A DNA stretch of 64,000 bases from Macrostomum lignano. Lineage: Eukaryota. The DNA is taken from contig NIVC01000529.1 in assembly GCA_002269645.1 (NCBI GenBank), forward strand, positions 170,213 to 234,212, given 5' to 3'. Within the stretch, counting starts at the first letter, position 1. Every line of letters begins with the position of its first letter. Positions 16,944 to 64,000 of the stretch are shown piece by piece. The position numbers and the translations under genes are program-made. The notes under the pieces were generated by a model. That model made no database searches. It saw only the letters and a list, made by a program, of their open reading frames with translations, and was not told the DNA's origin.

Positions 16944-29304
<12,361 letters not shown>

Positions 29305-44916: not shown

Positions 44917-45555
44917 TCAGGTATTCATGTACTTCGCGGCACAGTTGACCGTCACATTGACGAAGCTCTTGACGTAGACTCGATTCTCGCCGCCATTTTT
45001 CGGGCTGCATCTCTGCTGTAGCTTGTACACCTGACGGAAGTAGACTATGTCAACGCATTTTACTGGCTGTTGCCGACCGTTGCTCTTGTACACGATTGCT
45101 TCAGACTGAATGCATTCGGCGTGCACTATTAGCATTGGCACGGTGTCCGGGTAGTGCATCACCCTGTAGCGCACTGGACACACCCGACTGCTCAGATCTC
45201 TCAGCGGCTTCATTACCGGCATTGCTTCCGGGTACTGATCGTCGGTTTCCGATGTCTTTGCAAGCTCTTGCATCTGTTCAGCCAGGCTGTTCCACTCTTG
45301 AATTCTTAGCTCCTTCGGTAGATAAGTGTCGGCTGTGGAGTTCACGATCTCCTCGATAAGGCAGTCGGTATTGGAAATCTTTGTAAAACAGTTGCTTACG
45401 ATTGACCTTGAATTGTCGTCTCGACAAGTGACATCTGCGCTGCTGTTCAGTCGAATAAACGTTCGAGGCTTAGAGCTGCCATCGGCGAGCACCGAGTAAA
45501 CTGTTATTGCTGCTAATAGCGAGCAGCAGATCGCGGCCTTCCTCGTGGGCATCAT
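44917..45555 (-). CDS. Secreted IL-17-like cystine-knot protein, 212 aa, intronless
   Basis: Signal peptide (MMPTRKAAICCSLLAAITVYSVLA); C-terminal SSRVCPVRYRVMHYPDTVPMLIVHAEC...KCVDIVYFRQVY...C...YVKSFVNVTVNC parallels the invertebrate IL-17 pattern RSxCPWxY...PxxIxEAxC...CxPVxY..VL..C...VxVGC. Confidence 0.65.
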   Translation of the reverse strand: MMPTRKAAICCSLLAAITVYSVLADGSSKPRTFIRLNSSADVTCRDDNSRSIVSNCFTKISNTDCLIEEIVNSTADTYLPKELRIQEWNSLAEQMQELAKTSETDDQYPEAMPVMKPLRDLSSRVCPVRYRVMHYPDTVPMLIVHAECIQSEAIVYKSNGRQQPVKCVDIVYFRQVYKLQQRCSPKNGGENRVYVKSFVNVTVNCAAKYMNT

Positions 45556-48010
45556 GTTTTTGGGGCTTACTAGACTTTAAGACGTTTACAAAGATTTTGG
45601 TTTCAAATGGATTTCATTAAGCTAACTCATGCAAGCAGGGTGCTGCTCTTTTTATGTGTTTCTAGATGTTTACAATGAAAAACTCCATGTCCCGGGCTGA
45701 ACACGCCAGTGACTAAATTAAGCCAGGAAGGTGGTATTATCAAGAAGTGAACGAATCTGTGTGTTTACGTGTGTCAGTTTGTCACGGGAGCTATACTATC
45801 CTGTGCAAAATATAGCCAGTAGTGTCAGTGTCGGCCCAATTGACACCTGCGTAACGTGTACTGCAGCAGTCATTTCTAATTTTAAACTACTTTTACTTGA
45901 AAACACGCGTAGGCGTGTGTACATGTAGTAAATCTCTGCTGGACTGTAGATTGATTTATAAGTCTGGTCATTTGATTTATATCTAATATATCATGTATCA
46001 TCATATATTTAGTTCCAGTTTGGATTTGATTTTAGTAGCTTATAGTTATCTATTAAGGTCCTCCTGTAGGCTAAAAATTCCATTTCATAATAAGTAGTAC
46101 ATGTATAAGTAACGTGTATAGTGACATCGTTATGAGTCATGACAATTCACACATGTGATGGGTTTCGACCTTCCGGCCCCCTTGTGGGGAAGCCTTCGGG
46201 CCTCAGGCTCAGAAATAAATCAATTAGAGACCTGGCCCCCCACTCCTGTCAGATGGTCAGCCCCATGGTAGCTTGATCGTGTGGCGAGCAGTCTAGGTCC
46301 TATAGCTAAGAGAGGGACAGCGAGAGAGACAAGCAGGGAGAATTTTGAAGGTAGAAATTAGTTAATCCGCAGATTAGCTAACTCGCTGCCACCAGCCCGT
46401 ACGTCCTGGCTCACCACACCGGGACTCTCGAAATCGGGCTTCCGACTAGAAGGGGCTTTGCACTTACCTGCCAACTAGTGTCTTTTTGCTGTCAATCTCG
46501 AAGTCATAGCCGATGATAAGGGACACTGCTGGGACTAGATCGCATTGGCCATGCAGGTACAGAGGGGACTTGTGCAGGGGATTCTTGCAGTGGCGAGACT
46601 ATGGGGTAGCTCCACGTACTATTACATTGCTAAATGCGAAGAATTGTACTTTTGGCCTTCGACGCGCCAACTAGCCTCTCCTAGCGCTGATGATAGACTA
46701 ACTCGAACTTCAGAGACCGCATGATTCATTACCCGAGCCGCTTGGCTAACCTAGAGTGCACAAAGTACATCTCTGGCGCCGATTCTGCACTTCTGGCAGT
46801 TTTGCTCACTGATTTGATAGATTGGTCGACTGAGAACTGCCTTGCCATTGGTCCACTGTGACCGGCGCCTACTAGCTTAGCTACTCATCTGAGCCATCGG
46901 CGAACAAAGAAATAAAACCGATAAAAATAACTGTTAGATTTAACCTTCTCCTTAGATCGCTTCACACTTCAGATTGAATTGGAGTTTAGACTACTAGCAG
47001 TATTATTGAATGACTTCTGCCTCAGCAACAGCACTACTGAACAAAATGAGCAAAACAGGGGACAGATAAGGGACCACCCAATCAAGCAAGTCTAGATAGC
47101 CTCTCACCCAACCAATCAGAAACTCAACAGCCGGAGACCAGGAAATCCACAGTAACCGAATCGGCTTGATGCTTCGCAGCTGTAGACTCGGGATGATGCT
47201 GTCACAGTCTTCGCAGATAGCTAGCAGGTGATGATCTTAACTTTGATGTTCGCTGCTGATGACCGGGGGACTCGTCCTTGATGATGAGGGGGGAAGTCGC
47301 AATCCGGGGATCAAGAAACGACGGTCGGACTCCGGGAACCAGAAATGTCGGGAAGGTTCCTCCGCGGGAGAGCCGGGTGAGGGTCCGAGCGGGCCAAAAA
47401 CACCGGTTTAAATAGCCGCCAACTAGACCACAGTTTGTTATAATGGAACACGTCGATTCTGATTGGCTGAGCCGTTTTGTTAAAATGAGCGCCGAATTTT
47501 CTGATTGGCTAAGCTTATTGCTACCCAGAATCACGTGACCGGGAGATCCTATCAGTTCCCACAGGGTCGTAAAAAGATGACAGGTGCGGCCATAAATTAA
47601 TCAAAATCGCAACAAAATGATTTATGACTTTTCGCGAAGGATTGACAGAAATTAATGAAAAAATATACATTAGAAAGCTCTTATTAAATAGAAAGTGAAG
47701 ATAATGAAGAGAAATCACTAATCGCTAATCCCAAAGTACTTTTAGGGGTAAAACGCATAGCTGTCAAAGCTGTCACACGCTTGAGTGAACCCGGACAATT
47801 GGCTCTGACCTCACAAATCTTGATGGCCTGTCAAAAATGATGAGAAAAAAGCTGCCATTCGCATCCCCTCAGGCCATCTGGCGCCAGCCTCAACACTGAG
47901 TGAGGCGCAGGTGGCTGTCAGACAAACTTTGAAAGCGATGATTTACGACCCAAAAAGCTGCGCCTATGTTATTATGACTACTAGTATGACCAAACATTAT
48001 ATCTAGTATA

Positions 48011-48239
48011 AGTAGTAGAGGATAACACAACTCTGCCGCAGGGAAAGCCACGGAAATTCCGTGGGCCCGGATCAGAAGGGCGCCTATGTGTTTGCATAGC
48101 TCAACTCTGCCGCAGGCAAAGCCACGGAAATTCCGTGGGCCCGGATCAGAAGGGCGCCTATGTGTTTGCATAGCTCAACTCTGCCGCAGGCAAAGCCATG
48201 GGAATTCCGTAGACTCCTAATGAGAGTACATAGGCACCT
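48011..48239 (+). repeat. Maverick left TIR (contains two full 74-bp internal units)
   Basis: AGTAGTAGAGGATAACACAACTCTGCCGCAG...TAGGCACCT; reverse complement of 63852-64000. Confidence 0.95.
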
Positions 48240-48696: not shown

Positions 48697-48704
48697 TATA
48701 TAAG
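48697..48704 (+). promoter_or_regulatory. Candidate TATA box for the first Maverick ORF
   Basis: TATATAAG about 80 nt upstream of ATG 48780, in the TIR-proximal region. Confidence 0.4.
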
Positions 48705-48779: not shown

Positions 48780-49763
48780 ATGAATAAATCTCGGTGTCCA
48801 TCCTACGTGCACGAGGTGTGCATCAGCTGCAATTCATGTGAGCTCGGTGGGTTAAAGCTCCATAACAAAAAAGACAGCTGCATTATAAGTCGCTGGTTGC
48901 TTTGCCACGAGTGCCAGACAACTGAGCTGTTCAATGTGCGCCGCCAAGTTCGGGCCCATAAAAATCACACCATCATTAATTGGAGCTCGCCTGATAGCAT
49001 CGAACGAGCCCGCTTTACTGTACTGGAGGCCGCCCACCGCCAGGAGCAACTCAACATGATCGAGCGTCATCGAGCCCCGGTCAGCACCCTGAGCCAGACG
49101 ATTCAAGGTGTGCGAAATCAATCTGCAATAATTTCAACTACATGTACTTTTGATTTGATTTCCGTTGCACTTGCTGCTGCAGATCAGCATCCAGCTGATG
49201 TTGCCAGCCTTCCTGGACCTGCCAGCGTCGACTATCCAGCTGCTGCTCCTGGACCTGCTGGCATCGACCATCAAGCTGCCAGCGTTGACGTTCCAGCGGC
49301 TGGTGCTCTCAGTCTTCAGACACCGGTAAATCGCCATGACGATGATGCTGCTGCCGCTGATTTTGTTGCTCCGCCAGAATTGGACACGGCTTTCTTTGAG
49401 GAGCACGAGTTGGAGCCGGAGGAGACGAACGAAAAAGCCACGGTCGAGCAGCAGCCACCGCACAGGGCTGTTCCAGTCGCTGGAAAAAATATGGCTGGAA
49501 TGATGGCGGATGCCAGCCTGTCTGATCTCCTACGAGATTTCGAACCTCATGCTACCCCACCGGTGGTACCAGAGTTTCCACAATCAGCAGGAGTCGAACC
49601 TCATGCTACCCCACCGGTGGTTCAACAATCAGCAGGAGTCCAAGCCGCTGAACCGATGGCTGCACCGTCAGTTTGCCTTCAATTCGTCCTACCGAGTAGC
49701 GTTGTGGGCGAGTACTCAATTGACTTTGGAGGGGGGATCCGTATTCGCTTGAGTAACTCTTAA
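48780..49763 (+). CDS. Maverick accessory ORF, 327 aa: N-terminal ZZ-like zinc finger, acidic/Pro-Ala low-complexity region
   Basis: HEVCISCNSC...RWLLCHEC...AHKNHTII resembles the ZZ finger spacing; intact ORF with ATG. Confidence 0.6.
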   Translation: MNKSRCPSYVHEVCISCNSCELGGLKLHNKKDSCIISRWLLCHECQTTELFNVRRQVRAHKNHTIINWSSPDSIERARFTVLEAAHRQEQLNMIERHRAPVSTLSQTIQGVRNQSAIISTTCTFDLISVALAAADQHPADVASLPGPASVDYPAAAPGPAGIDHQAASVDVPAAGALSLQTPVNRHDDDAAAADFVAPPELDTAFFEEHELEPEETNEKATVEQQPPHRAVPVAGKNMAGMMADASLSDLLRDFEPHATPPVVPEFPQSAGVEPHATPPVVQQSAGVQAAEPMAAPSVCLQFVLPSSVVGEYSIDFGGGIRIRLSNS

Positions 49764-50524: not shown

Positions 50525-53500
50525 ATGCAGGATCCTACAACATGTTCTAGGCGAAGAGCAGGTGAAGGAGCAGGTGAGTTTTGCCACTCTGTTAATGTAA
50601 AAAATCAATTATTTTCTTACCAATATTTGAAGTGGAAAAATTTTAAACCTTCAACTCGAAATGTGTAACTAATTCAGTTTTAATTAATGCGTAATAACAC
50701 CCGCCCACCCCGAGTCCGTACACCAACCCTGACTCTGCACATCCCCGTCCTCGACTCTGCACACCCCCTCCTCGACTCTTCACACCCCTCCTCGACTCCG
50801 CACACCCCCTCCTCGACTCCGCACACCCCCTCCTCGACTCTGCACATCCCTTCTTCGACTCCGGACACCCCACCTCGACTCTGGACACCACACCTCGACT
50901 CTGGACACCCCACCTCGACTTCGCACACCTCTGCACACCTATATCGATTGTATACATCCAAAAACACCCTCCTCGATTCTGAATACAGACATCGATTATT
51001 ATGAATAGCTAATTGAGCTGGATTTATAAGAATCATGAGACTCTCAGTTTATGTTTCTCGATTTTCACTATCTTATCTCTCGATTTTATTTTTAGGGTCT
51101 TCATGTGTTATCTCCTTGGTGAACAGTGCCCACGATGATGTACTGCAGATTCATCGCTTCGCCCCAACAGCTGACATTGATCCATTCGAGTTTCTAGACC
51201 TGGTCAAACATGCGGTTCTGCAGTATCTCGAAGTTCGTCTTGACTCCTTTGACAACTGTTCGCTAAGAGCACAAATTAAGCTAAACGTGCGCATGATTCG
51301 GGTGCAGGCAGCAGAAGCAGTCAATGTTGAAAACAAATGGATGAGTACAAATCTTTGTATGCTGGTTGATGTGCAGGAATTTGATGACTGGTGGAGGCAG
51401 CAATTTGCAGAGTTAGAGCAGAGAGTAGACGTGTACAACGCTAATGGCAGTGGATGGGCCATTGACAAAATAAATTTCTTCGACCTTTGCTCTGCCCTCG
51501 CTGTTCGAACTCCCTACTATTCGGGGCATGCGGCTGGGTTTAGTTTGCCGACTGCGCTTTTTCAAAAGAAGGCCGTCATTTCTCCTCCTAGCAGCGGTGA
51601 AAATTGCTTTGTTTACGCGTGCCTTGCCTTTCTTCACAAAGATCACTGCCGTATTAAGAAGTCAGCTCAACGAGAATCCTCGTACACCGAATGGCTAGAT
51701 GAGATTAACATTACGGGACTGAGTCTGCCGATCAATTTGTACGATCTGTCTGCTGTCGAGGAATTAAATCCAACCCTTTGCTTCACTGTTTTCACCTGGG
51801 AGAATGAAGCTGCTGAAGTCCTCCGACAGCCAAGCGCAGCTACCATGAGAGGACGAACAGTTGTCCTGCTGATGTTTCTTCCACCATCCACGAACGAGAA
51901 CTCAGCTGGTGGTCATTGGTGTGCTGTCTCGAACATCAACAGATTGCTGAACAGTAAAGCCCACCTGTACCAGCGAAAGTGGTGTGAGCGATGTCTGCTG
52001 TCATTTCACACTAGCAAGGCGTTCGATGAGCACTGTGAAGATATCTGTGAGCCTGGTGGGATTTTTGTTCAGGAAGAACTTCCGGATGAAGATCACAATG
52101 TACTTCGGTTTACGGCGTGGGAAAAGACAATCAGCCCACCATTCATTGTGTACGCCGACTTCGAGGCATTGAATGCACCTCACACAGGGCAGCAGACTGA
52201 AGCTGGTTCGAGCACTGTAAAGCTGACAGAGCATGTTGCCGTTGCTGCTGGTTACTTGGTGGTGCACCGAGCAGGCCTCACAGGGTTATCACCTATAGGA
52301 GTCGACAATGATGTTAACATATTTGTGAGTGAAAATCCGAAAAAGTGTGTTTCTGACTTCTTGCAGTCCCTTGAACAGCTAGCTCGAGAGGTTTATGGCT
52401 GGAACACGGAGTTCAGTCATCAGACGGCTATTAGAACGGAGGCTGCAAAGCAACGCTTCCGCGACGCTATATCGTGTCACTACTGCGGAAGCGGCTTTGA
52501 TAGTGAAAGCGGAAAGCACTGGGATCATGATCACCTCAGTGGCGAATTCCGAGGTGCAGCCTGTGCTCAGTGCAACATGCAGGCTCGTCTAAAAAGGCGC
52601 TTTCTTCCTGTGGTTTTCCACAATCTAAAAGGCTATGACCTTCATCTCATTATGTCAACGGCTTTGGATCTCATGGATGGATGGAGGATTTCGGTTATTC
52701 CACAGAATCCTGAGCAGTTTGTTTCAATGAAAGTTGACTTCAAAATCGATGAGTACGAGAGGGGAGGAAAGACTAAGCCATTGTTCTTTACCATTCAATT
52801 CATTGATTCTAACCAATTTCTCAACGCCAGCTTGGCTCAGCTGATCAAGAACCTGCCAGAAGAAGAGTGCACCATCACTAGCCTGCTAAAAAGTAAGTTT
52901 CCACTGTTGTCTCCAGAAGTTTTATTCAGAAAATGCACTTTTCCGTACGACTACTTAACTAATTCAAATGTCCTTGAGGATACCGAGCTGCCAAGTAAAG
53001 AACAATTCTACAACGTTCTGACTAAAAGCCACTGCAGTGATGAGGATTACAGGCATGCACAGAAAGCATGGCATGAATTCCAAGTTAAAACGCTGAAAGA
53101 GTACATGCTATGCTACCTTGAGCTTGACATTCGGCAGCTCGCCGATGTCTTTGAAAATTTTCGCAAGCTCAGCCTTCGTGATGATGGCCTTGATCCGGTG
53201 CATTTCGTTTCAACCCCGGGATTATCTTTTGCTTCAGCACTGAAGTCTCTCAAATCCAGAATCGAGCTGATTACGGATTCGCAAATGTATGCAACATTCG
53301 AGCGCGGTATTCGCGGTGGCATGTCATTTGTGAACATACACAGAGTGTCAGCCAACTCTCCAGATATTAGAAAAAATTTGGAAGCAGCTGACAATCAGAC
53401 TATCTGCAATGACAATGATGATGATGATGATGACTGTCACGACGAGGGCGCTGATCAAGCTGTTCCTACCGAGCTTCTAGCAGTAGATGCTAACAACCTT

Positions 53501-54868
53501 TACGGTCAAGCTCTTACCATGAACTTACCTGCAAATGGATTTCGCTGGCTTTCCGAAGATGAGCTACAGCTGTGGACCGAGGATCGTATCCGAGGGCTCA
53601 AAATCTCAGATCCAATTGCTTATCTGCTCGATGTCGATCTTCTATATCCAGCAGAGATACATTCCACCACTGAAGATTTGCCTTTTGCACCAGAAAAAGA
53701 AGCACCAAAATTCAAAGAATTTCCTGCCTACATGCAACAGCTTTGGAGGCAGATTACTGGAGACAAAGCAGCCTATCGTTCGGCAGAAAAACTTCTGCTC
53801 ACCTGCCATGACAAGCAGAGTTATGTGCTTCATTCGGCTATCTTGGCATTCTACTTGAGCCATGGAATGAAAATCAAACGAATTAATCGAATGATTGAGT
53901 ACAAACAGGAGCCGATATTTGCTGACTATGTTAACATGAACAGCGTGAAAAGAGCTGCTGCGACAAACAGCTTCGAGAAAGACTACTACAAACTAAAAAA
54001 CAATGCGCTCTTCGGAAAAACAATGGAAAACGTGCGTAAGCGACGTGACATTCGGATTTGCACCAACACTGCAAAAGCAAAGGTGCTGGCTTCAAAACCA
54101 TCCATTAAGAACTTTATCATAATTACCGACTCACTGAGCATAATTGAATTCCAGAAGACTAAGGTCAAGCTTGATCGTCCGATTTTTATTGGCCAGTGTG
54201 TTCTTGACTATTCGAAGCTAATCATGTACGAGTTATTCTACGACAAATTGAAGCCTTGGCTTGAGCAAGAGGGTGCCCGTGTTCGGCTCTGTGGTGGAGA
54301 CACCGACTCGCTCTTTCTTTGCATTCAGAATATGGATGTGCAGTCGGAAGTTCTTCCACTGCTAAAAGCAAAGAAACTCCTTGACACTTCCAACTATTCA
54401 CCTGAGCACCCGCTGTTCTCAAATGAATTGAAAGCTCGCCTCGGTTGCATCAAGGACGAAGGAGCTGGAGCTCGCTATCTCGAATGGTTGCTTTTGAGAC
54501 CAAAGCTGTATTCCTTTCTCGCTAGCACTGCAACTGCTGAAAAGAAAAAAGCCAAAGGCATTCAAGGATGTGTTGTCAAGAAGGAGATTGCGCATAGTGA
54601 TTACTTGAGAGTCTTCAATGATCTGAGTAGCATGTCCGTCATCATCCACAGGATCGCTAGCATCCAACACAGGCTATTCACGCTGCAGCAGCGAAAGTGT
54701 GCCTTAAGCATTTGGGAGGACAAGCGCGCTTGGCTTGCACCGAACTACAGTCTCCCGTTTGGCCATTTTCAACTTCTTCATCCGGAGTCGTCGCAGCTGC
54801 AACAGCACGTGAATGCTACAGCCTCCCGAAAGCGGCGACGGGAAGAAGACTACGAATTTAATAAGTGA
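50525..54868 (+). CDS. Protein-primed family B DNA polymerase; predicted exons 50525-50573 + 51096-54868 (1273 aa)
   Basis: ExoI YADFE, ExoII HNLKGYD, PolA DANNLYG, PolB KLKNNALFGK, PolC GGDTDS, RPKLYS; EndoVII-like CHYC...DHDHLSGEFRGAACAQCN; vOTU-like NCF...GHW. The phase-1 donor CAG|GTGAGT (50573) matches the phase-1 acceptor TTTTTAG|GG (51095). Confidence 0.95.
50720..50985 (+). repeat. 21-22 bp minisatellite (CCTCGACTCTGCACACCCCT) inside the predicted pPolB intron
   Basis: Tandem units read directly. Confidence 0.9.
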
Positions 54869-55596: not shown

Positions 55597-56187
55597 TTAT
55601 TTTTGATAGGTGATAAACTGGCTGATTAAACTATGTAACGTAGAAAGGTCGAAGCGCAACATGCTCATAGATTTTGCTCCACTAAGAACAAAAGAACCAG
55701 TATGAAATAACAAGCATTTACAATAACGTAATGTATAAATTAGAGCAGAGAACGACTCGGGCTCATACTCAGCGTAAGACAGTATGCCAGAGGCAGCAAG
55801 ATTTGTGAGGGACAAAGCATTGCAGAAGTTAAATTTACCATGAGCAGTAATAGTTTTAATCCGAACACAAATGGCTTGAGGAGGCAGCAGTTGAGCTGGC
55901 ACTCTCCGATGCAGCATAGCCACGAAGCGACGGGCAGCCCTTTTGGCGTCTGCGTGGGTCTTGGCACCGCAGATGCTCAGTTGCCCAGTAGGGTAGAGTA
56001 GCAGAGTCACTCTGGGACTTCGCATCCGCTTGATGAGCACCCGGGGCCAGACGGGCCGGTAGATCACATGAGCCATGCTGAGAGCCAGTTCCCGTAGAGG
56101 TAGCTGAGCGCCCCTGCCACCATCCAGCCTCAGATCTACTCCGCCAACCAGATTGCTCACTCTTAGGGCTGTAGCTGGTGGGCTCAT
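55597..56187 (-). CDS. TATA-binding protein (TBP)-like protein encoded by the Maverick, 196 aa from ATG 56187
   Basis: Both TBP repeats: VSNLVGGVDL...LPLRELAL..AHVIYRP..PRVLIKRMRSPRVTLLLYPTGQLSICGAKT..DAKRAARRF, and IKTITAHG...AEYEPESFSALIYTL..CKCLLFHTGSFVLSGAKS. Confidence 0.9.
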   Translation of the reverse strand: MSPPATALRVSNLVGGVDLRLDGGRGAQLPLRELALSMAHVIYRPVWPRVLIKRMRSPRVTLLLYPTGQLSICGAKTHADAKRAARRFVAMLHRRVPAQLLPPQAICVRIKTITAHGKFNFCNALSLTNLAASGILSYAEYEPESFSALIYTLRYCKCLLFHTGSFVLSGAKSMSMLRFDLSTLHSLISQFITYQK

Positions 56188-56707
56188 TTCGATCGTCAAC
56201 TTCTTCACCAAATCTGCTTCTGCCAACTTTACTGCTCGTGTGCCACGGACACTGCTCGCTTCTTAAGTTGATGCAGAACTTTGGCTTAAGCCAACTGTAG
56301 TGCAGCAACGAATTTCTCACTGCACAGCCAGTATCTGAATCTTCAGTCGAGGGTGCTCCCAAATCTTCTAGGTTATAAACCTGTCTACCAAGCAGCTCAG
56401 TCAGGAAAATAGACTTCCTTTCCCCATTTGTCCAGATCGGACCACTGGCAATCCTCAGAATGTCTTCCGCCAGTTCCATGTACGGACGGGTTCCATCATT
56501 CCACTTAAACTGGTGCAGACTCTTTGATAGCTGTCTGTAGCAAACTCGCATGTCAGGTGAGACTCTCTCCCATGGATACGGAGGTGCGTACACATGGTGA
56601 GCAATTCGGTAGCTTCCCGCTCTGACTTGAACAACTGCCAACTCCTTCACAACAAATTTTTTGCTTGTGCTGTTGCACGGGAATCCTTGGAAGTCAATGT
56701 AGTTCAT
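55856..56707 (-). CDS. DEDD/DnaQ-like exonuclease-fold Maverick ORF (domain approx. 56280-56707); the tail overlaps the TBP-like ORF in another frame
   Basis: IDFQGF...FVVKELAVV...HHVYAPPYPW...HQFKWNDGTRPY...IWTNGERKSIFLTELL...VYNLEDLG...CAVRN pattern of the Polinton-associated DEDD-like family. Confidence 0.65.
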   Translation of the reverse strand: MNYIDFQGFPCNSTSKKFVVKELAVVQVRAGSYRIAHHVYAPPYPWERVSPDMRVCYRQLSKSLHQFKWNDGTRPYMELAEDILRIASGPIWTNGERKSIFLTELLGRQVYNLEDLGAPSTEDSDTGCAVRNSLLHYSWLKPKFCINLRSEQCPWHTSSKVGRSRFGEEVDDRNEPTSYSPKSEQSGWRSRSEAGWWQGRSATSTGTGSQHGSCDLPARLAPGAHQADAKSQSDSATLPYWATEHLRCQDPRRRQKGCPSLRGYAASESASSTAASSSHLCSD

Positions 56708-56735: not shown

Positions 56736-57428
56736 TCAGTCCACCTTCTTATATACTTTTCTGCCAGGCAGTTTCAGCCAGGCTGTGTTGCTCCCGTACC
56801 CCTTGACTAGACTCTCCTGTTCTTTCTCCAGTTCACCCCCTCTGCTGGTTGCCATTTTCTTCTTAACTGATTTACCAACAGCAGAAAGCGGAACATTAAG
56901 CTTTTTCTGCTGCAGCAAATCGATGAACTCGTTCCACCCAACTGGTTCACGCTCACATGACGAATCCCTCACTGCGTGCTGAATCAAGTCCAGTATGTTT
57001 GAGGAAGGGATTGACGTGCCTGCGATTTCCACCTCTCCGTTTTCACAAACTCCAATCAGCTCTGGATTGGTGGACAGGATCGTCCATAGACTGCGAGCCC
57101 TGGTTTTGAATTTCTGTGGCACCGACTTGCTGATCTTCTCTTCCCAGGTGTTCATCTGGGGTGTCTCTATTTTCATCAACTTGGCTTCAGTATTTCGTGA
57201 TCCTTCTTTTCCAGCGTGCTTGCGCTTGGCCAGCAAACTTTGCATTGCACTTTGATACATGGCGGTTTTCACATCTTCTGGATAATCCTCGGCATACAAG
57301 ATATCATCGCATTTCTTCTGAGCCTGCTTCAAGTCAGCGTCAGTGCTAGTCTCATTTGGCTTCAAATTCTGCACTAACATCTCATACTCTGCTTTAGAAA
57401 TCAGAACCATTTCTGAAAATTTGTTCAT
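56736..57428 (-). CDS. Conserved Maverick core ORF of unknown function (PZ/PW-type), 230 aa
   Basis: ILYAEDYPEDVKTAMYQ...GEVEIAGTSIPSSNILDLI...PVGWNEFIDLL...NVPLS resembles a conserved Polinton ORF; the PZ versus PW label is not certain. Confidence 0.6.
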   Translation of the reverse strand: MNKFSEMVLISKAEYEMLVQNLKPNETSTDADLKQAQKKCDDILYAEDYPEDVKTAMYQSAMQSLLAKRKHAGKEGSRNTEAKLMKIETPQMNTWEEKISKSVPQKFKTRARSLWTILSTNPELIGVCENGEVEIAGTSIPSSNILDLIQHAVRDSSCEREPVGWNEFIDLLQQKKLNVPLSAVGKSVKKKMATSRGGELEKEQESLVKGYGSNTAWLKLPGRKVYKKVD

Positions 57429-57732
57429 TTTGCTTCTTTTTCTTTACCAGCTTAAGCAGAATCGGGAGTATTTTGATGAAGCCAGCCTTTAACAAGTCTA
57501 TCTTTCTTCTCTGCTGAGTAATTTTTCGAATTATCTCTTTTGACTTTGCAAGAACAGCTTTTTCATCGATCGAAAACGATAAATTGTTTTGTAAGAGATT
57601 ATGACAGGCCTCAACAAGAAAATAACGCACTTCTTTTGGACAATTTTTTATCAACAGCTGCTTGAAGCGCACGGTATATTTAGGTGACGCAAGAACCGCA
57701 AAAAGACTTGCATGTGAATCAAGCACTTCCAT
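57394..57732 (-). CDS. Small basic conserved Maverick ORF, 112 aa
   Basis: LAVL...KQLLIKNC...FLVEACHNLLQNNL...LAKSKEIIRKI...GFIKILPILL resembles the small Polinton ORF found next to the ATPase. Confidence 0.55.
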   Translation of the reverse strand: MEVLDSHASLFAVLASPKYTVRFKQLLIKNCPKEVRYFLVEACHNLLQNNLSFSIDEKAVLAKSKEIIRKITQQRRKIDLLKAGFIKILPILLKLVKKKKQNEQIFRNGSDF

Positions 57733-57774
57733 AGCGATGAAAACAATAGCCGATAAAAAACAAGCTTCACTTTC

Positions 57775-58422
57775 TTAAGCAAATACAAGATGGGGTCGCT
57801 GGTTGGGCAAAATTCTGGCCCGCACTCGCAGCTCATCGGGAGTTGATGGGTGAAAGTCTAGGAACAGGTAGGCTCCCCTGTTCTGCGCGGTCACGTGCTT
57901 GAACACTGACAGCAGAAAGCCGGGCTTCTCTGTAAAGCACTGCCTGCCCAGTGCTGCAATCTGCAGCTGGTCTCGGGGGTTTTTCAAGATAGCTAAGTAC
58001 ATTACATTCAAGCTCATTGTTCGCGACTCTTTTCCCTTGAAAAATATATTCTGAGTCAGCATCACCAAAAAGCACGGCAAGTGATGTGCGATTCCTGTGA
58101 AAAAATTTCGCATTGAAGCAGAATTTGAAGTTTCCTCTATTAAGTCATCGAAAACAACCAGGTCATTGGGCCTAAGTGCTGCCTCGATGTTGGTGGGGAA
58201 TCCCTGGCGCAGCTGCACACCTAGGCTGCTCAGTTCTGCATGGCCTGCCTGTGAGATCCCATAGTACCACAGAACTCTGCCAGGCTTCACATCAAACATG
58301 ACGTCTCTGTACTGGATCAGGTGTTTGACAAAGGTTGTTTTTCCTGCATTGGTGGGCCCGCAGACAATCATGCAGCTTCCCTGCCTGAGGCGGATATCGT
58401 AGCAAACTCGCTTTTCTCCCAT
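57775..58422 (-). CDS. A32-like DNA packaging ATPase, 215 aa
   Basis: Walker A GPTNAGKT, Walker B VVFDD, LTQNIF, SLNVMYLAILKNPRD, YLFLD. Confidence 0.95.
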   Translation of the reverse strand: MGEKRVCYDIRLRQGSCMIVCGPTNAGKTTFVKHLIQYRDVMFDVKPGRVLWYYGISQAGHAELSSLGVQLRQGFPTNIEAALRPNDLVVFDDLIEETSNSASMRNFFTGIAHHLPCFLVMLTQNIFFKGKESRTMSLNVMYLAILKNPRDQLQIAALGRQCFTEKPGFLLSVFKHVTAQNRGAYLFLDFHPSTPDELRVRARILPNQRPHLVFA

Positions 58423-58451: not shown

Positions 58452-58961
58452 TCACGGACATCTTTTTCTTAAGTTGGCTTCAAACCTCTGTAAGATTCTA
58501 TCATTCAAATGATTTTTTTCATTAGAGTGCAAACTCTTTAAAATACCCTCAAATGACCGATTGATCAGCAACTTTTGATAAGCAAAATAGATGCAAAACA
58601 CTCCGCATTTATTAGAGTTAGCACATTGAAATCTGTTTATATTGCTTCGGAGATAAAAGCCAGTTGTTTTAATCTCTCGAAACAAATTATAAACCACAGA
58701 TAAAATTTCAGGTTCCCAGCCGAGGGAGTTGAACAGCTCAATGCAATTTCCTTGCCCAGCATAGCACACCACCCAATGACCAAATGAGCCATTGTGCTGT
58801 AGTAGGATAAACACAAACTTGTTTTCAAAGGGAATTGATCGATATTTTCTTTTTAGACTCAAAGACAATACATTTTTATAGCGTGAATGTAAAGTAATGA
58901 TGAAGAATTTTCGGCAAGACAAAAATTTTCTGGCGAGATGGAGTAGTTGAATTGCTTCCAT
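58452..58961 (-). CDS. Adenain-like (C5) maturation cysteine protease, 169 aa
   Basis: GHWVVCY (His), ELFNSLG (Asn where Asp is usual), FQCANSNKCGVFCIYF (Gln, Cys). Confidence 0.9.
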   Translation of the reverse strand: MEAIQLLHLARKFLSCRKFFIITLHSRYKNVLSLSLKRKYRSIPFENKFVFILLQHNGSFGHWVVCYAGQGNCIELFNSLGWEPEILSVVYNLFREIKTTGFYLRSNINRFQCANSNKCGVFCIYFAYQKLLINRSFEGILKSLHSNEKNHLNDRILQRFEANLRKRCP

Positions 58962-58966
58962 GCCAG

Positions 58967-60247
58967 TTAAGAGGAATAGTCCAGCAAAAGCTCCCGGTGC
59001 TTGGTGACCTCAATCAGCGAGTCATACAGGCACAGAGCGATCAGGGACACCGTTTCGTCCAGAGCCTGTCGGAAGCGAATCTCCAACCGCAGGTTGCCCT
59101 CCTTCTGTCCGTACCACAGAGCCGCTCCCTCTGGTGTGAGATCGAATGCAAACACCGTGCTGTTGTTGGAGAAGAGCTGGTAAGGGATCCACGGAACCGA
59201 GTTCGTGTGGCTTGCAGATTGACAGCTTTTCAGGTAGTGTAAGTATTCTCTTACAAAGGAATTGTTTTCAGGTGTGAAGGCACCGTGCACACGGTTTCCC
59301 CACCTTTCTTTAGAGCCAACGGCTAAGGTTGAAGCTCTGGAACTGGAACGGGCTCGCGTGATGATGACCGTTGAATGCACGGTGGCTCACGAAGGCCAGC
59401 ATGATGAACTTCGGCAATTTTCCATGAGTGAATCCTTCAATGTTTTTAGATTGAATGCCCTGGGGTAGGATGAAGTTCTGCATTTCAGTTCGCTCGATGG
59501 GATACAGTGCATTTTGGTTTGTCAACCCCTGCTCGTGGGCCAGGCTGATGTGGGGCACCACTTTGACTCGGCGAAGATGCAAAATGCAGTGAGAGATTTC
59601 CATGCGGTATGCCGCGTTGTTTGCATTCGGGCTTCTGATGGCAAAGGCCCCATCGCTGGGCACCAGTTTGATGTGCAAGTGCAGATTGTTTAGCAGAAAC
59701 ACTGGGCATTGGAAAACATCGCTGAAGAGCGGTCCCGCATACTCCATCCATCGGGATTCCCTGTGGCTCTCCGTGTGCTTTCAGCTGCCGAGTTCGGCTC
59801 CAGGAAGCCAGCAGGGTAAAGTTTTAGTTGCTGGGCATCAGATGAGCTCATTAGTGCTTTGAAGTACGCATGGTAGGGATAGAGCTGGTCTCCACCAGAT
59901 ACCACTCGCTGGTTAATGCTCACAATTACATCTGAGAAGGCTGTAGACAAAACAAAGTTTTCTGGGTGCACGTCACTGTCTCTGCGCTCGGTGATGATGC
60001 CATCTCCATCTCGAACATCCTCCCTCAGCAAACCCCCATCCAGTCTCACAAGGCGGCAGCGAATATAAAGAAAAGAATTAAGCAAATCAGTGTATTCATC
60101 GGCAGATTGGTGGCAGTCAAATTCAATGGGGGAGTTTGCAGTAATGGAATTTACTGGGTGAATATCAACATAAGTAGCTTTTTCAATGCAGGTTTGTAGA
60201 ACAGGCGTCTTAAATAAATCAAGTCTGGGATTGAATCCGTAAGCCAT
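58967..60247 (-). pseudogene. Major capsid protein (double jelly-roll, PY), split by two frameshifts (approx. 59750-59800 and approx. 59320-59335)
   Basis: LDLFKTP.LQT.IEK..YVDIHP...PIEF; YPYHAYF; GPLFSDVFQ..FLLNN.LHIKL; YPIER; LPKFIMLAFV..AFNG...PFQF; VFAFDLTP...GNLRLEIRF, distributed over three ORFs. Confidence 0.9.
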
Positions 60248-60249
60248 GT

Positions 60250-60633
60250 CTATGACAGAGAGTCGAGCACGCGTTTCACAGTTTTCTTGCTGACTTTTCG
60301 CTTTCGCTTTCCTCCGCCTGCTGCATTCTTCTTTGCTTTCGTCTTCCTATTCTTAAGCTTTTTCCTACTAGCCTTGCTCGGATTTCTTTCATTGCACCTC
60401 TTATTGGTGCGATCTCTACCAGTTGCCTTTCGGGTGTACTTCTTCTTCAATCGTTTCGGACTTGCTTCAGTATTTCTTTTGCGCCTGACATTGCTATGCG
60501 TTGAGAATGATGATGTAGCCGCTGGGAGGCTGGTATGTCATGATCCCCGGAAAGCTCCCACAGCCATAGAGTGCAGGCTTTTCGTGTCCTGTCCTCACCC
60601 CGAATATTGCTGGATCAGCTGCTGGTAGTTCAT
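60250..60633 (-). pseudogene. Putative core/DNA-condensing protein with a Lys/Arg-rich tail, frameshifted
   Basis: ATG 60633 MNYQQLIQQYSG; FPGIMTYQ in a second frame; KKKYTRK...RKKLKNRKTKAKK..GGGKRKRK tail in a third frame with no ATG of its own. Confidence 0.4.
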
Positions 60634-61455
60634 TGAATGCGTTTCTCCGAATCTGAACTGTGAGCAGAACAGGGCTGAGTGTCTGGGCAATCAGTGGGCA
60701 ACCATAGATGTCACGCAGCTGAACTCGAATGCTGTGAAGAAGACTGATTCGTTGAATCGGGAAGAATATTGTTTTCTTAAATATTTTTGTTTGATAGTTG
60801 CCCCATTCAATGCCGGCTTTCATTCCAACTGTTCTCAACAGGGAGCCCAAGTTGCAATTAGTTGACTCAACGATACTGCAGTGCACATTGATTAAGCTGG
60901 TGCGCGGCAGCCAATGCAGTGCTCGGACACGCGGCTCCCTGGCTGGATTTTCACAGCCTGGTTTCCAAATCCCAGCCAATGCAGAATTTTGCTGGATGGG
61001 AGAAACATCTCTGCTCTCGCAGTGTTGTTGTGCACCACAGTTCGTGAGTTGCGGATTTCGAACTTCATACCGAATTCCCTGTTGCCACTACGCCCCATCA
61101 GGCCGGACTCATCAGCCTCCATCTCAGACTCCCTGTCACTCATTGCATCAAAGAATAGCGAATCAGAGTTGGCCAGCAGCTGATTCAAACGCTCCACCAG
61201 CTCCTCCACTCTAGCAAAGCGTCCGGGTTGAAGAACCAGGGCCTCATGCTCTCTTCCATCTGAGACAGTGAAGCAGTAAGGCTCGTCAACATTGAACCAT
61301 GCAGCAGGCAGATGGATTTCAGCCAGACCTGCCTCATAGTCCACATTTCGATCCAAGTAAATAGGTGAAGGCAGGTAAAAATTAAAGTCACTAGGAGTAC
61401 CTTCAGCATGCTCACTGTTAATCAAAATAGTTCGCATTATAATGTTAAACCTCAT
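60634..61455 (-). pseudogene. Minor capsid protein/penton (PX), one frameshift near 60920
   Basis: SDFNFYLPSPIYL...YEAGLAEIHLP..WFNV; WLGF; then INVHCSIVE...LLRTV...FFPI...SIRVQLRDIYG...TVQIRR in the next frame (3' end approximate). Confidence 0.8.
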
Positions 61456-61474
61456 GAGAAGAGATGCGCAAAAG

Positions 61475-62534
61475 CTAAACCTTTCTTAAGTCTTTTTCAT
61501 CCACCCAGCCTGTCGAGTCGTAGCCGGCCCACTTCACCAGATAGCGAATTTTTCCCTTCCGCTTCTCCGTTTTCAGAATCTTCTCAATCACATACAGTCG
61601 CTGTGAGTCCGGCACCGCCTGCAGCTCATGCTCATGAAAGAGACCCCGGATCTCCTCACCCTTTATGTCCCTAATCTTGTACATGTACGGATAGTGCTTC
61701 GGTGCCCTACATACTACAGTGTACACCTCCTCACTCCAGTTGGCCTTGTATCCTTTGTATCGTGCATTGGAAATTCTCACTGACTGCTTTTCACTGAATT
61801 TGGGCTTCTTTGGCTTTTACAGTCTCAATGGCTCTTCCATTGTAAAGGTTCATCCAGACCTCAGTCTCATTCTCTTTGCATACGCTAGTCGGTGCCATTT
61901 TGATGCTTCTGTGGTAAGTGTTGTTGTACGACTTGACCAGCTTTGGCAACACATCAACCCAATGCAAAGTGCTCTTGTGGGTGAAATATCGCCACATTTT
62001 GTTTTTCAAAGTTCTATTCCACCTCTCTATGATGGCTGCTTTTTGCTCACTATTAGTGGGGAATGCCAAAATTCCCTTGCTTATACAGAGCTCCCGAAAA
62101 TTGGTATTGATGAACTCTTTTCCTTGATCCGTGCGGACTGTGCGTGGCTGGCGCTTTGAGCACCTCAGGATACTCTCGAATGCGAACTTGACTTCCGCAG
62201 CTGATTTGTTTTTTAGAGGCCTGGCCCAACCAGATTTAGAGAGGACATCTATACATGTGAGAATATACTTGTAGCCGTTATTGTATTTTGCAAATGGTAT
62301 CATCTCAACCAGGTCAAGTTCCCACTGATCATCAATAGCCCTAACAATGATTGGTGCCATAGGATAGCGTCTCCTAGCTTGCTTGTGCAGTGTGTACACA
62401 GGCTGCTCAGTCAGCCATTGTCCGATGCTCTTTTTAGATTCACGATTATCCTGTGTTTTCTTGAGCTCGTGCAGAAGCTTTGAGACACCCGAGAAACTGG
62501 CAGGCTGAGCAGGGTTGTAGTAGATCTTTTCCAT
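61475..62534 (-). pseudogene. Retroviral-like (rve) integrase with C-terminal chromodomain, one frameshift near 61810
   Basis: YYNPAQPASFSG; DDE WELDL / TDQGKEF / IERWNRTLK; after the shift KPKF..VRIS...KGY.ANWSEE and IEKILK...YLVKWAGY. Confidence 0.92.
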
Positions 62535-62977
62535 TATCAAAATCAAGCTGAATGAAAGCCTGCAAAACAATTTTTTTAAGTTCTTTTCGCGGTTTGCTCA
62601 TTGAGCCACTGTTCAATGCTCTTTCAATTTTTATGCCCACCCTCTTCTCAACTTGATGCAGCAGCTTTGAGCAAATTGAAAAACTAGCTGGTTGGCCAGG
62701 AGCAAAGTAATTTTTTCCATTTTCTCAAGAAACAAAAGTCAACAGTCTAATTTTTTCTTAAGCACAAGAACAAAGGAAAACAATTTTTTATGAAAAGAAG
62801 CTTTTATATTTTTAGCGGATAAGAAACAATAAGTTGCATGATTTTCTTAAATGGAGAGACTTAATTAAGTTTTCTGGATAAATGAGCAATGTTAATTATA
62901 GAAATTGTTAAATGAGCCAATTTAAGTATGTCACCAGTCACCAAAGTTCTTCAAAGCACTTCTTATTTTCTTCTTCT

Positions 62978-63713
62978 TCACTCCTCATCCTCATTGAGGC
63001 GCAGTCTCATGGCATTCTGCCTGCGCAGCGGATATGGTTGCTTGCGCTTCCTGACGTTCTCGACCGCAGCTGCTTCAGCCCGGAAGCGATACCAGACTGG
63101 GTCCTGCAGCAAATCCGAATCCTGCTTTGGGATAAAGCCAGCTGCAGCACTTGTCACCGGTAGAGGCGTTGATGTGACCACTTCATCGTCGATGCGTAGA
63201 GTGCTTGATTGGACGCCCTCATCCTCAGTCTTCGCAAGCCGCAGTGTCGTCCTTGTTGCTGTTGTCATCATCATCACCGCTCTCGCTCGAAGATCCCGAC
63301 TCCAGCTCATACACATCAGAAATTTGGCGTGGGGCAGACAGCTGCTCGTCGATCCATGCAGCCTGCTCCCACAGTTTTCGCCACAGAGCTGGTGCCAAGC
63401 CACAGTGTTTCGCTTCAAAAATTCTTCGCAGCAATCTTCTGGAAGCCGTCTTAGCCAGATGATGCCGTTCTTAACCTCAACAAACTTATCAAAACCGAGT
63501 TTGATGATCCTCTGTTGCCCGCCTAGGGCCGCCTTCACGAGAGTTCGCTTCAGTTCTTTCAACTTCTCCCATTGTCGGATGTTGAGGTTAAATCCGGGAA
63601 CGCCGGGTTTTAAACTTGCTGTGCTGCCATGTCGATAAAATTTCCGAATCGCAATAACTGTACTCTTCATACTCTTGTACTTGAAGTTTGTAGCCTTCTC
63701 CAATATCGACCAT
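62978..63713 (-). pseudogene. Tandem PC4-like (ssDNA-binding/coactivator fold) protein with an acidic then basic tail, about 3 frameshifts
   Basis: Reconstructed repeat 1: MVDIGEGYKLQVQEYEE|TVIAIRKFY...LKPGVPGFNLNIRQWEKLKE. Repeat 2: IIKLGFDKFVEVKNGIIWLRRL...|EAKHCGLAPALWRKLWEQAAWIDEQL. Compare PC4 [26 protein letters not shown]...[26 protein letters not shown]. Confidence 0.75.
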
Positions 63714-63851: not shown

Positions 63852-64000
63852 AGGTGCCTATGTACTCTCATTAGGAGTCTACGGAATTCCCATGGCTTTG
63901 CCTGCGGCAGAGTTGAGCTATGCAAACACATAGGCGCCCTTCTGATCCGGCCCACGGAATTTCCGTGGCTTTCTGCGGCAGAGTTGTGTTATCCTCTACT
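63852..64000 (-). repeat. Maverick right TIR (one 74-bp unit fewer than the left), truncated by the window edge
   Basis: AGGTGCCTA...GAGTTGTGTTATCCTCTACT is the reverse complement of the left TIR. Confidence 0.95.

What the first reader, a model, noticed from the sequence alone, without database searches (positions are those of the whole stretch)
55597..56187. TBP homolog inside a Maverick, with an intact TFIIB stirrup but an altered N-terminal DNA-binding half
Seen: uninterrupted, intronless 196-aa ORF with both TBP repeats. By manual alignment to yeast TBP, the C-terminal half keeps both intercalating Phe (F190, F207) and the TFIIB-binding YEPE acidic stirrup (E186/E188). The N-terminal half has Pro (next to Trp) at F99 and Tyr at F116; N69 is kept and N159 is Thr. 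It is far more diverged than any cellular TBP/TRF. Inference: a captured TBP retooled for a non-TATA element promoter, or a decoy sequestering TFIIB. TBP-like genes are known in large DNA viruses (Nucleocytoviricota) but are not part of the canonical Maverick gene set.
Basis: partly seen in the sequence, partly recalled or inferred. Interest (0 to 1): 0.92.

Follow-up and report, generated by a model that had tools for sequence, protein, structure and literature searches.

The report
Maverick TBP with matching promoter box
Virus-like Maverick transposons in this genome carry their own reshaped TATA-binding protein, and a variant TATA-like box sits in front of several of their packaging and capsid genes, which suggests that they switch on those genes with their own promoter factor plugged into the host's transcription machinery.

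Summary
Confirmed: 55597-56187 (-) is an intact 196-aa two-lobed TBP (Pfam E 5e-26; model pLDDT 90, TM about 0.8 to solved TBPs) inside a 16-kb TIR-bounded Maverick. It is a fixed gene of two Maverick families in this genome (36% identical to each other), under purifying selection in both lobes, and not a recent retrocopy. The residue calls are right, but the DNA face is rebuilt in both lobes, not only the N-terminal one; E186/E188/F190/F207 are kept in 14 of 14 proteins. New: CTTAAGAA occurs six times in the element, always on the sense strand, five times 35-110 nt before a cassette gene; NNTAAGAA is kept at matching places in distant subfamilies. The element has a PC4-like gene but no TFIIB. 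Best reading (0.55): an element-specific promoter factor that reads this box and recruits host TFIIB/Pol II, like herpesvirus vTBP but keeping the TFIIB stirrup. Binding and expression are untested. A TBP-like gene is already labelled in one adintovirus paper's figure legend, and this scan noted Polinton TBPs twice before on other DNA, once with a TATAAAC box.

The parts
55597..56187 (-). TBP-fold gene, 196 aa, two lobes
56260..56267 (-). CTTAAGAA box 80 nt before the TBP ATG, inside the upstream gene
   Evidence: present in 29 of 29 family-A loci examined (27 distinct places)
55856..56707 (-). 283-aa ORF: conserved core of about 150 aa (DEDD/RNase-H-like label recalled from its motif; Atlas look-alikes are 167-181-aa unnamed proteins) plus a low-complexity tail that overlaps 332 nt of the TBP gene in another frame
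56748..56755 (-). TATATAAG (canonical TATA, overlapping TATAAGAA) 48 nt before the 283-aa ORF
57772..57779 (-). CTTAAGAA box 47 nt before the 112-aa ORF (spans the ATPase stop codon)
58466..58473 (-). CTTAAGAA box 51 nt before the packaging ATPase ATG
60350..60357 (-). CTTAAGAA box 110 nt before the putative major capsid gene
61483..61490 (-). CTTAAGAA box 35 nt before the putative minor capsid gene
62755..62762 (-). Sixth CTTAAGAA, 42 nt before the ATG of a 23-codon ORF upstream of the integrase
62978..63670 (-). PC4/p15-like ORF (weak Pfam PF02229 hit, under the cut-off; also in family B, where it lies next to the TBP gene)
51035..54868 (+). Protein-primed-type family B DNA polymerase ORF, convergent with the TBP gene (polymerase motifs read by eye; Pfam gave only an endonuclease-VII-like stretch)
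48780..49763 (+). 327-aa ORF of unknown family, 83 nt behind a canonical TATATAAG at 48697
56736..57428 (-). 230-aa conserved Maverick ORF (PZ-like label recalled)
57394..57732 (-). 112-aa conserved Maverick ORF
57775..58422 (-). Packaging ATPase (A32-like, weak Pfam hit)
58452..58961 (-). Adenain-like cysteine protease (weak Pfam hit)
58967..60247 (-). Putative major capsid gene, in several frames in this copy (label from position and recall; no Pfam hit)
60892..61455 (-). Putative minor capsid gene, shortened in this copy (label from position and recall)
61791..62534 (-). Retroviral-type integrase (Pfam rve), shortened in this copy
48011..48239 (+). Left terminal inverted repeat, starting AGTAGT, with tandem sub-repeats
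63852..64000 (-). Right terminal inverted repeat, cut by the contig end

Best explanation
The element encodes its own core-promoter factor. SHOWN: a TBP-fold protein kept under purifying selection in two Maverick families, with the TFIIB-binding acidic stirrup invariant and the DNA face rebuilt in the same way in all members; a sense-strand CTTAAGAA/NNTAAGAA box before several cassette genes, kept at matching places in distant lineages; canonical TATA boxes before other genes; a PC4-like gene; no element TFIIB or RNA polymerase gene found. INFERRED: host TBP first transcribes the genes with canonical TATA boxes (in family B the TBP gene itself has TATAAAAG; in this family the overlapping upstream gene has TATATAAG). 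The element TBP then binds the variant box in the minor groove, recruits host TFIIB through E186/E188 and so host Pol II, and drives the ATPase, capsid and small structural genes (a late programme), and in family A its own gene as well. Loss of Pro191 would allow C at the first base and V203K changes the pocket that reads the second base. The PC4-like protein may help open or stabilise the complex (weakest step).
For: Fold and family. Selection: TBP-frame pN/pS 0.05-0.28 in codons 1-111 and 0.21-0.48 at near-saturated or saturated pS in codons 112-end over 21 pairs of 7 subfamily representatives. Fixed residues in 14 of 14 proteins. Box: 6 of 6 CTTAAGAA in the element on the cassette's sense strand, 0 antisense, about 0.6 expected from an order-2 model; 5 of 6 lie 25-115 nt before one of 10 gene starts, windows that cover 11% of the cassette (binomial p 8e-5, post hoc); an unbiased 6-mer scan ranks CTTAAG and TAAGAA first and second. 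The box is kept before the TBP, ATPase, 112-aa, capsid and 283-aa genes in the second family-A group (synonymous divergence about 1) and before the capsid, minor capsid, 112-aa and 283-aa genes in family B, in different reading frames and once across a stop codon. Published structure-function (passages of PMC1636458): the C-lobe reads the 5' half; Pro191 bars anything but T at base 1; I194/V203/L205 set base 2; wild-type TBP prefers TATATAAG. Viral TBPs that have their own TFIIB usually lose the acidic stirrup (section 11 of PMC7221094); this one keeps it, and no TFIIB domain was found in 14 window ORFs, while the 15 genomic PF00382 matches lie on contigs without a listed element TBP. Precedent for a virus-encoded TBP reading a variant TATA box on late genes: herpesvirus ORF24 and TATTWAA (passages of PMC12529657).
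Against: No binding or expression data. The link between protein and box rests on co-occurrence in the same elements; no TBP-less Maverick was available as a control. Over the whole window the box count alone is not unusual (7 seen, 4.05 expected, 13 of 100 shuffles reach 7). 4 of the 10 gene starts tested lack TAAGAA in the window (PZ-like, protease, integrase, PC4-like). Two of the boxes fall in lysine-rich coding tails that favour AAG AA. Family-B boxes are mostly TATAAGAA, which host TBP could bind (G at base 6 is tolerated). One intercalating Phe is Pro and another Tyr, and all four Phe are required in herpesvirus ORF24, so DNA binding itself may be weak or different. The register of the box on the protein (CTTAAGAA or NNCTTAAG) is not determined. 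The PC4 hits are below Pfam's cut-off.
Confidence: 0.55

Rival explanations
1. The boxes are ordinary, somewhat weak TATA variants read by host TBP; the element TBP is a booster or replacement that acts on TATA-like sites in general (for instance in cells or stages where host TBP is scarce, or free of host inhibitors), without a private specificity.
For: Family-B boxes are mostly TATAAGAA and one family-A box is TATATAAG, the preferred site of wild-type TBP. N69, V71, T112, L114, F190, L205/I and F207 are kept. Family B has lost the basic patch of helix H2 that host regulators use (viral TBPs evading such factors is proposed in passages of PMC7221094).
Against: Family-A boxes start with C-T, which Pro191 of host TBP disallows in one register and which puts C at base 3 in the other. 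A general booster has no need for eight or more fixed changes on the DNA face.
Confidence: 0.2
2. Decoy or dominant-negative: the protein binds TFIIB (or Brf) through the stirrup, binds DNA poorly, and dampens host transcription or a host defence response.
For: E186/E188 invariant while F99, F116, N159 and P191 are changed.
Against: The changed DNA-face residues are invariant across families 36% identical, and the N-lobe is 86-99% identical among family-A subfamilies; a decoy's unused DNA face should drift. TFIIB binds TBP well only on DNA (established knowledge). It leaves the conserved box unexplained.
Confidence: 0.1
3. The box is read by the transcription apparatus of a helper virus (TAAG is the late-promoter core of baculoviruses and nudiviruses, recalled), as virophages share late promoters with their giant viruses; the element TBP is an adapter for that apparatus or acts elsewhere.
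For: TAAG is the core of the box. Shared promoter motifs between virophages or polinton-like viruses and helper viruses are the subject of several papers in the listing (listing and abstract starts only).
Against: No helper virus is known or seen here; the protein is structurally closer to cellular TBPs (TM about 0.8, 22-27% identity) than to large-virus TBPs (TM at most 0.75, 8-22%) and keeps the cellular TFIIB stirrup; in baculoviral promoters the start lies inside TAAG (recalled).
Confidence: 0.07
4. A non-transcriptional role: bending DNA at the terminal repeats for replication or packaging, or steering integration to TATA/TFIIIB sites.
For: TBP-fold proteins bend DNA (established knowledge); the C-lobe travels with the polymerase arm in recombinants.
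Against: No CTTAAGAA or TATA box lies in the terminal repeats. The 15 termini read fall into 10 distinct flanks, and most end in GC-containing words, not TATA. It does not explain the invariant TFIIB stirrup.
Confidence: 0.05
5. A recent, neutral retrocopy of host TBP or TRF2 carried as a passenger.
For: Intronless (but so are the cores of the host TBP and TRF2-like genes); a host-lineage origin is not rejected by AU tests (p 0.62, 0.36, 0.36).
Against: 31-32% identity to either host gene; purifying selection; same gene position in two families whose ATPases are 45% identical; relatives in other data sets.
Confidence: 0.01

Closest known systems
Cellular TBP and TBP-related factors (PF00352; yeast TBP numbering)
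   Same: Two-lobed saddle (TM 0.81 to 3oc3_C), N69, V71, T112, L114, E186, E188, F190, F207, basic pI.
   Different: Core only, no N-terminal extension; F99P, F116Y, V122S/T, T124C, Q158K, N159T, V161T/S, P191 lost, V203K, V208H fixed; carried by a mobile element in well over a hundred listed places.
Beta/gamma-herpesvirus viral TBP (KSHV ORF24; homologues UL87, BcRF1 recalled) on TATTWAA late promoters (PMC12529657, passages)
   Same: Works like it, if the inference holds: a virus-encoded TBP fold with a more polar DNA face, a variant TATA box before structural genes, host Pol II.
   Different: ORF24 is a large multidomain protein that binds Pol II directly, keeps all four Phe and the Pro, lacks the acidic stirrup and needs five more viral activators. 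This protein is a bare 196-aa core that keeps the stirrup, has two of four Phe, and has only a PC4-like companion.
TBP-like proteins of Nucleocytoviricota (PMC7221094, section 11 and passages; BFVD hits)
   Same: Viral TBP fold; loss of host-regulator signatures in the N-lobe (family B).
   Different: Those viruses mostly carry their own TFIIB, and the stirrup co-varies with it (about 40% conserved); here no TFIIB or polymerase gene was found and the stirrup is invariant. Sequence and fold are nearer to cellular TBPs.
'TBP' gene label on a MELD/adintovirus-like element (Starrett et al. 2021, PMC8502044, legend of Fig. 5; preprint 10.1101/697771)
   Same: A TBP-like gene in a polinton-like element has been noticed before.
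   Different: Only a label in a figure legend in the section on non-animal data sets (the figure itself could not be seen, so the element is not known to me); no residue, selection or promoter analysis in the passages found.
Mavericks/Polintons (eight core genes; PMC8097293, passages)
   Same: TIRs, polymerase, integrase, ATPase, protease, putative capsid genes in two opposed modules, intronless, about 16 kb.
   Different: Adds TBP and PC4-like genes and a candidate internal promoter box; the words TBP, TATA and transcription do not occur in that paper's main text nor in PMC10748475.

Membership tests
TBP family (PF00352) | Two TBP repeats above the Pfam cut-off | tested here: met
   90.8 bits, two stretches; family B 68.2 bits
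TBP family (PF00352) | Saddle fold of ten strands and four helices | tested here: met
   Model pLDDT 90.4, 10 strands and 4 helices; Foldseek TM 0.73-0.81 to solved TBPs
Canonical TATA-binding TBP | Four intercalating Phe (99, 116, 190, 207) | tested here: not met
   Pro and Tyr at 99 and 116 in 14 of 14 proteins; a Trp or His sits one place before the Pro
Canonical TATA-binding TBP | Central Asn pair (69, 159) and Pro191 | tested here: not met
   N69 kept, N159 = Thr, P191 = Ser/Thr/Asn in 14 of 14
Canonical TATA-binding TBP | Acidic TFIIB stirrup E186/E188 | tested here: met
   14 of 14
Canonical TATA-binding TBP | Binds TATA DNA and TFIIB | not testable with these tools
   Needs EMSA/SELEX and pull-down
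TRF2/TLF | TRF2-type stirrup (EPELHP in the host paralog) and grouping with host TRF2 | tested here: not met
   Family has EPExF; 31% and 24% identity to the host paralog; does not group with it in free trees, though AU does not reject it
Maverick/Polinton | Terminal inverted repeats starting with an AG-rich terminus; 15-20 kb | tested here: met
   AGTAGT at 48011; inverted copy at 63852-64000; about 16 kb
Maverick/Polinton | 6-bp target-site duplication | tested here: inconclusive
   Not readable in the window (contig ends). One sister insertion shows 5 of 6 matching bases on its two sides, and two other records with the same flank show the sixth
Maverick/Polinton | Protein-primed PolB, rve integrase, packaging ATPase, cysteine protease | tested here: met
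   rve E 9e-13; Peptidase_C5 E 0.003 and Pox_A32 E 0.011 (both under cut-off); polymerase by motifs read by eye
Maverick/Polinton | Major and minor jelly-roll capsid genes | tested here: inconclusive
   ORFs of fitting size and place, no Pfam hit; not folded
Herpesvirus vTBP (ORF24 type) | Pol II-binding N-terminal domain, extra C-terminal DNA-binding domain, no acidic stirrup | tested here: not met
   Bare core of 187-199 aa with the stirrup kept (ORF24 features)
Herpesvirus vTBP (ORF24 type) | Variant TATA box before structural genes | tested here: inconclusive
   A conserved variant box is present; that this protein reads it is inferred
Nucleocytoviricota TBP-TFIIB pair | Element-encoded TFIIB and a co-varying, non-acidic stirrup | tested here: not met
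   No PF00382 hit in 14 window ORFs; genomic PF00382 matches lie elsewhere; stirrup invariant

The most novel reading that the evidence does not exclude
Animal Mavericks can run their own early-to-late transcription cascade with a minimal kit: a re-specified TBP, a PC4-like cofactor and a private TATA-variant box, plugged into host TFIIB and Pol II. The TBP lost a canonical kink residue yet stays specific, and its two lobes are exchanged between element lineages by recombination at the inter-lobe junction, so natural chimeras sample different 5'-half readers. Such short TBPs may be widespread in invertebrate Mavericks, each with its own box.
Probability: 0.4. Interest if true: 0.88.

Novelty: new variant of a known kind. 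Interest (0 to 1): 0.72.

Why it matters
How Mavericks/Polintons express their capsid genes, and whether they have a virus-like temporal programme at all, is open; the two Maverick surveys searched here do not use the word transcription in their main text. A named factor with a named box makes the question testable with an EMSA, a SELEX and 5'-end mapping in a laboratory animal (the closest named database relatives are labelled Macrostomum lignano). It would be a third route to virus-specific late transcription beside herpesvirus vTBP (no TFIIB stirrup) and the large DNA viruses (own TFIIB and polymerase). It also offers a natural altered-specificity TBP that keeps the TFIIB interface, of interest for TBP structure-function and orthogonal promoters.

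Tried and rejected
Expression: the run search listed 20 holders of the stretch but no RNA holder on record, and no reads were laid; expression is untested, which is no evidence either way. Complex prediction of the protein with a 171-aa part of the host TFIIB: no answer, score 0.01, no alignment used, no DNA; not evidence. Context outside this genome: four scans of viral contigs found no relative; the metagenome scan gave 14 loci at 21-33% identity, of which the 7 read were ordinary eukaryotic or prokaryotic TBP loci without Maverick genes; so the relatives P0003-P0005, P0007, P0045, P0156 and 17 other short divergent TBPs have no known context. Origin: quick trees place families A and B together (SH-aLRT 92 and 99) on the eukaryote side, away from the host genes, but AU tests do not reject grouping with host TBP (p 0.62 on 72 rows, where the constrained tree scored higher than the free search; 0.36 on 37 rows) or host TRF2 (0.36); donor unresolved (the trees used a chosen subset of the 155+ proteins held). 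Idea that the element integrates at TATA sites: rejected, 15 termini, 10 distinct flanks, mostly not TATA. Idea that the overlap caused the odd N-lobe residues: rejected, since the TBP frame is the constrained one (overlapping frame pN/pS 1.8-4.6) and the changes are shared by family B. A protein search with the upstream gene's core found nothing. Literature: searches Polinton+Maverick+TATA-binding protein, adintovirus/TBP (25), Macrostomum+Polinton (33), Polinton+PC4 (67; the one hit was a principal-component label), Polinton+TATA-box binding+endogenous (68), Polinton+TBP (69), promoter-motif terms (89), Maverick transposon+TATA-box-binding protein (103) found no study of a Maverick TBP or its promoter; subscription journals, Repbase reports and preprint supplements were not searchable, and one structural paper I wanted was not held. 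The one supplementary file held for PMC8502044 had no hit for TBP, TATA, Macrostomum or PC4; its figures could not be seen.

Full report
1. The observation. Window 55597-56187 on the minus strand is one open frame of 196 codons. Pfam finds PF00352 twice (90.8 bits, E 4.8e-26), and 35 of 37 PDB matches are TBPs. An AlphaFold2 model built on a 10-row alignment has mean pLDDT 90.4 with ten strands and four helices and matches solved TBPs at TM 0.73-0.81; large-virus TBPs match less well (TM at most 0.75, 8-22% identity).

2. The element. The gene lies in a Maverick of about 16 kb. Copies in the genome begin at the same point; the terminus is AGTAGT at 48011 and an inverted copy of the left end lies at 63852-64000, where the contig stops. 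On the plus strand are a 327-aa ORF and a 1277-aa polymerase; on the minus strand a PC4-like ORF, integrase, putative minor and major capsid genes, protease, ATPase, two conserved ORFs, a 283-aa ORF and the TBP gene. The capsid, PZ and DEDD labels are from position and recall; Pfam gave no hit for them.

3. It is a fixed, selected gene. The genome search gave 151 matches (150 of 227 candidates scored); of the 150 rows listed, 94 are near full length without a stop, 10 of them identical to this protein, the rest mostly pieces. The assembly is partly redundant (three records each of host TBP and TRF2), so these are not copy numbers. A second family (B) has the gene behind the same upstream gene, 36% identical to this protein, with 17 near-full-length open matches. 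Close relatives exist in other data sets: three at 70-74% and one at 44% for family A, two for family B; their context is unknown. Among seven family-A subfamily representatives (21 pairs) pN/pS is 0.05-0.28 in codons 1-111; in codons 112-end synonymous sites are near or at saturation (pS 0.56-0.86) while 51-78% of residues are kept. The host's own TBP and TRF2-like genes are present and only 31-32% identical to it. A recent neutral retrocopy is excluded. The donor is not resolved: families A and B form one long-stemmed group on the eukaryote side, but AU tests do not reject a sister position to host TBP or TRF2.

4. What is kept and what is changed. In 14 of 14 family proteins (8 from this genome, 6 from databases) N69, V71, T112, L114, E186, E188, F190 and F207 are kept, and F99P, F116Y, V122S/T, T124C, Q158K, N159T, V161T/S, loss of P191, V203K and V208H are fixed. 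So the DNA face is rebuilt in both lobes, and rebuilt identically in families that share only a third of their residues: a signature of a new specificity rather than of decay (inference). A Trp or His precedes Pro99 and an Arg (Gln in one) follows it; whether the ring takes over the kink cannot be read from my model. Family A keeps most of the basic patch on helix H2; family B has lost it.

5. A candidate target. Printing the DNA before each gene showed a shared word. CTTAAGAA occurs six times in the element, all on the cassette's sense strand, against about 0.6 expected, and once in the 48 kb of host DNA. Five lie 35-110 nt before the TBP, 112-aa, ATPase, major and minor capsid starts; the sixth is 42 nt before a 23-codon ORF. 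With 10 gene starts, windows covering 11% of the cassette hold 5 of 6 (p 8e-5, post hoc), and an unbiased scan ranks CTTAAG and TAAGAA first and second. The independent check is conservation: the second family-A group (synonymous divergence about 1 in the surrounding gene) keeps CTTAAGAA before TBP, ATPase and the 112-aa gene, CCTAAGAA before the capsid gene and TTTAAGAA before the 283-aa gene; family B has CTTAAGAA, CATAAGAA and TATAAGAA at the matching places, but a canonical TATAAAAG before TBP. The word sits in different reading frames and once across a stop codon. It precedes the TBP gene in 29 of 29 family-A loci examined (27 distinct places; loci without a readable upstream ORF were left out). 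Against: over the whole window the count is ordinary, 4 of 10 starts lack TAAGAA, and two boxes lie in lysine-rich tails. Canonical TATATAAG or TATATAA boxes stand before the 327-aa, 283-aa and PC4-like ORFs.

6. How it most likely works. Published work (passages of PMC1636458) has the C-lobe on the 5' half of the box, Pro191 allowing only T at base 1, and I194/V203/L205 setting base 2. The family has lost Pro191 and has Lys at 203, which fits a box starting C-T (inference; the register is not fixed). Large DNA viruses that carry TBP mostly carry TFIIB and let the stirrup drift (PMC7221094, section 11); herpesvirus ORF24 drops the stirrup and binds Pol II itself (PMC12529657, passages). This element shows no TFIIB or polymerase gene and keeps the stirrup, so host TFIIB and Pol II are the likely partners. 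Proposed order: host TBP starts the canonical-TATA genes; the element TBP then drives the box genes, and in family A itself; a PC4-like protein in both families (under Pfam's cut-off) may assist. Confidence 0.55. Rivals: general TBP booster with host-readable boxes 0.2, TFIIB decoy 0.1, helper-virus promoter 0.07, non-transcriptional role 0.05. Binding and expression were not measured.

7. Two side features. The upstream ORF reads on for 332 nt (family A) or 389 nt (family B) into the TBP gene in the same frame relation; the overlap is open more often than synonymous shuffles allow, but the TBP frame carries the constraint. The inter-lobe junction is a recombination join: near-identical N-lobes and structural cassettes are coupled to C-lobes and polymerases of different lineages.

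8. What is known. A 'TBP' gene label appears in the legend of Fig. 5 of Starrett et al. (PMC8502044, section 10 read, figure not visible; preprint passages). PMC11161782, PMC8097293, PMC10748475 and 10.64898/2026.06.19.733378 were searched by term only and do not mention TBP. Eight literature searches found no study of a Maverick TBP or promoter; closed journals, Repbase and preprint supplements were out of reach. This scan holds two earlier unchecked notes on Polinton TBPs in other genomes, one with a TATAAAC box and an early-to-late reading; my motif came from a script sent in the same turn, but I reuse that wording, and I did not test those notes. Nothing was noted for this genome or sequence.

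9. Verdict. It works like a viral late-promoter TBP but is not a member of the herpesvirus or large-virus systems. New variant of a known kind; interest 0.72.

Noticed in passing
window 55856-56187 (-); L031 4696-5084 (-): The upstream gene's frame stays open for 332 nt (family A) or 389 nt (family B) into the TBP gene, in the same frame relation in 31 of 31 loci where both ORFs were found. Synonymous shuffles leave it open in 0.4-4% (family A) and 0.1-8% (family B) of trials, yet its amino acids are unconstrained. Look-alikes of that gene are 167-181 aa, ending about where TBP begins. Reason unknown.
   Followed up: partly
window about 55830-55860 (TBP codons 110-120): Recombination join inside the TBP gene: the structural cassette and N-lobe are about 95% identical in DNA to L037 and L038, whose polymerases are only 41-53% identical in protein; each polymerase type comes with its own C-lobe.
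   Followed up: yes
L014; P0010; several rows: Some copies have the upstream gene and the TBP in one frame (open frames of about 360-390 aa). They may be frameshifted or mis-assembled copies; not pursued.
   Followed up: no
window 58967-62534 (-): In this copy the putative capsid gene lies in several frames and the minor capsid and integrase ORFs are shortened; decay or assembly error.
   Followed up: no
P0012, P0017, P0023, P0030, P0044, P0046, P0066, P0067, P0090, P0106, P0148 and others: A set of short (152-215 aa), divergent TBPs from metagenomes and read assemblies, several with the same Phe-His and shortened C-lobe hairpin; candidates for TBPs of other Mavericks or DNA viruses. No context found.
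   Followed up: partly
window 44917-45555 (-): Intronless interleukin-17-like ORF (Pfam IL17 E 5e-8) about 2.5 kb left of the element.
   Followed up: no
window 24285-25394 (-) and 25902-26294 (-): Tyrosine-recombinase-like ORF resembling a Crypton-type element (label recalled), inside an intron region of a kinase gene with SH2-like exons at 16944-27814.
   Followed up: no
window 46156-48010: A second, unrelated repeat with many copies at 88-96% identity ends right at the Maverick's left terminus.
   Followed up: no
L032 6966-8636 (-); L036 2638-3646 (+): Family-B copies interrupted by reverse-transcriptase or integrase-bearing retroelements.
   Followed up: no
L034, L035: The host TBP and TRF2-like genes have single-exon cores and three records each in this assembly, so element copy counts may be inflated by redundant contigs.
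   Followed up: partly
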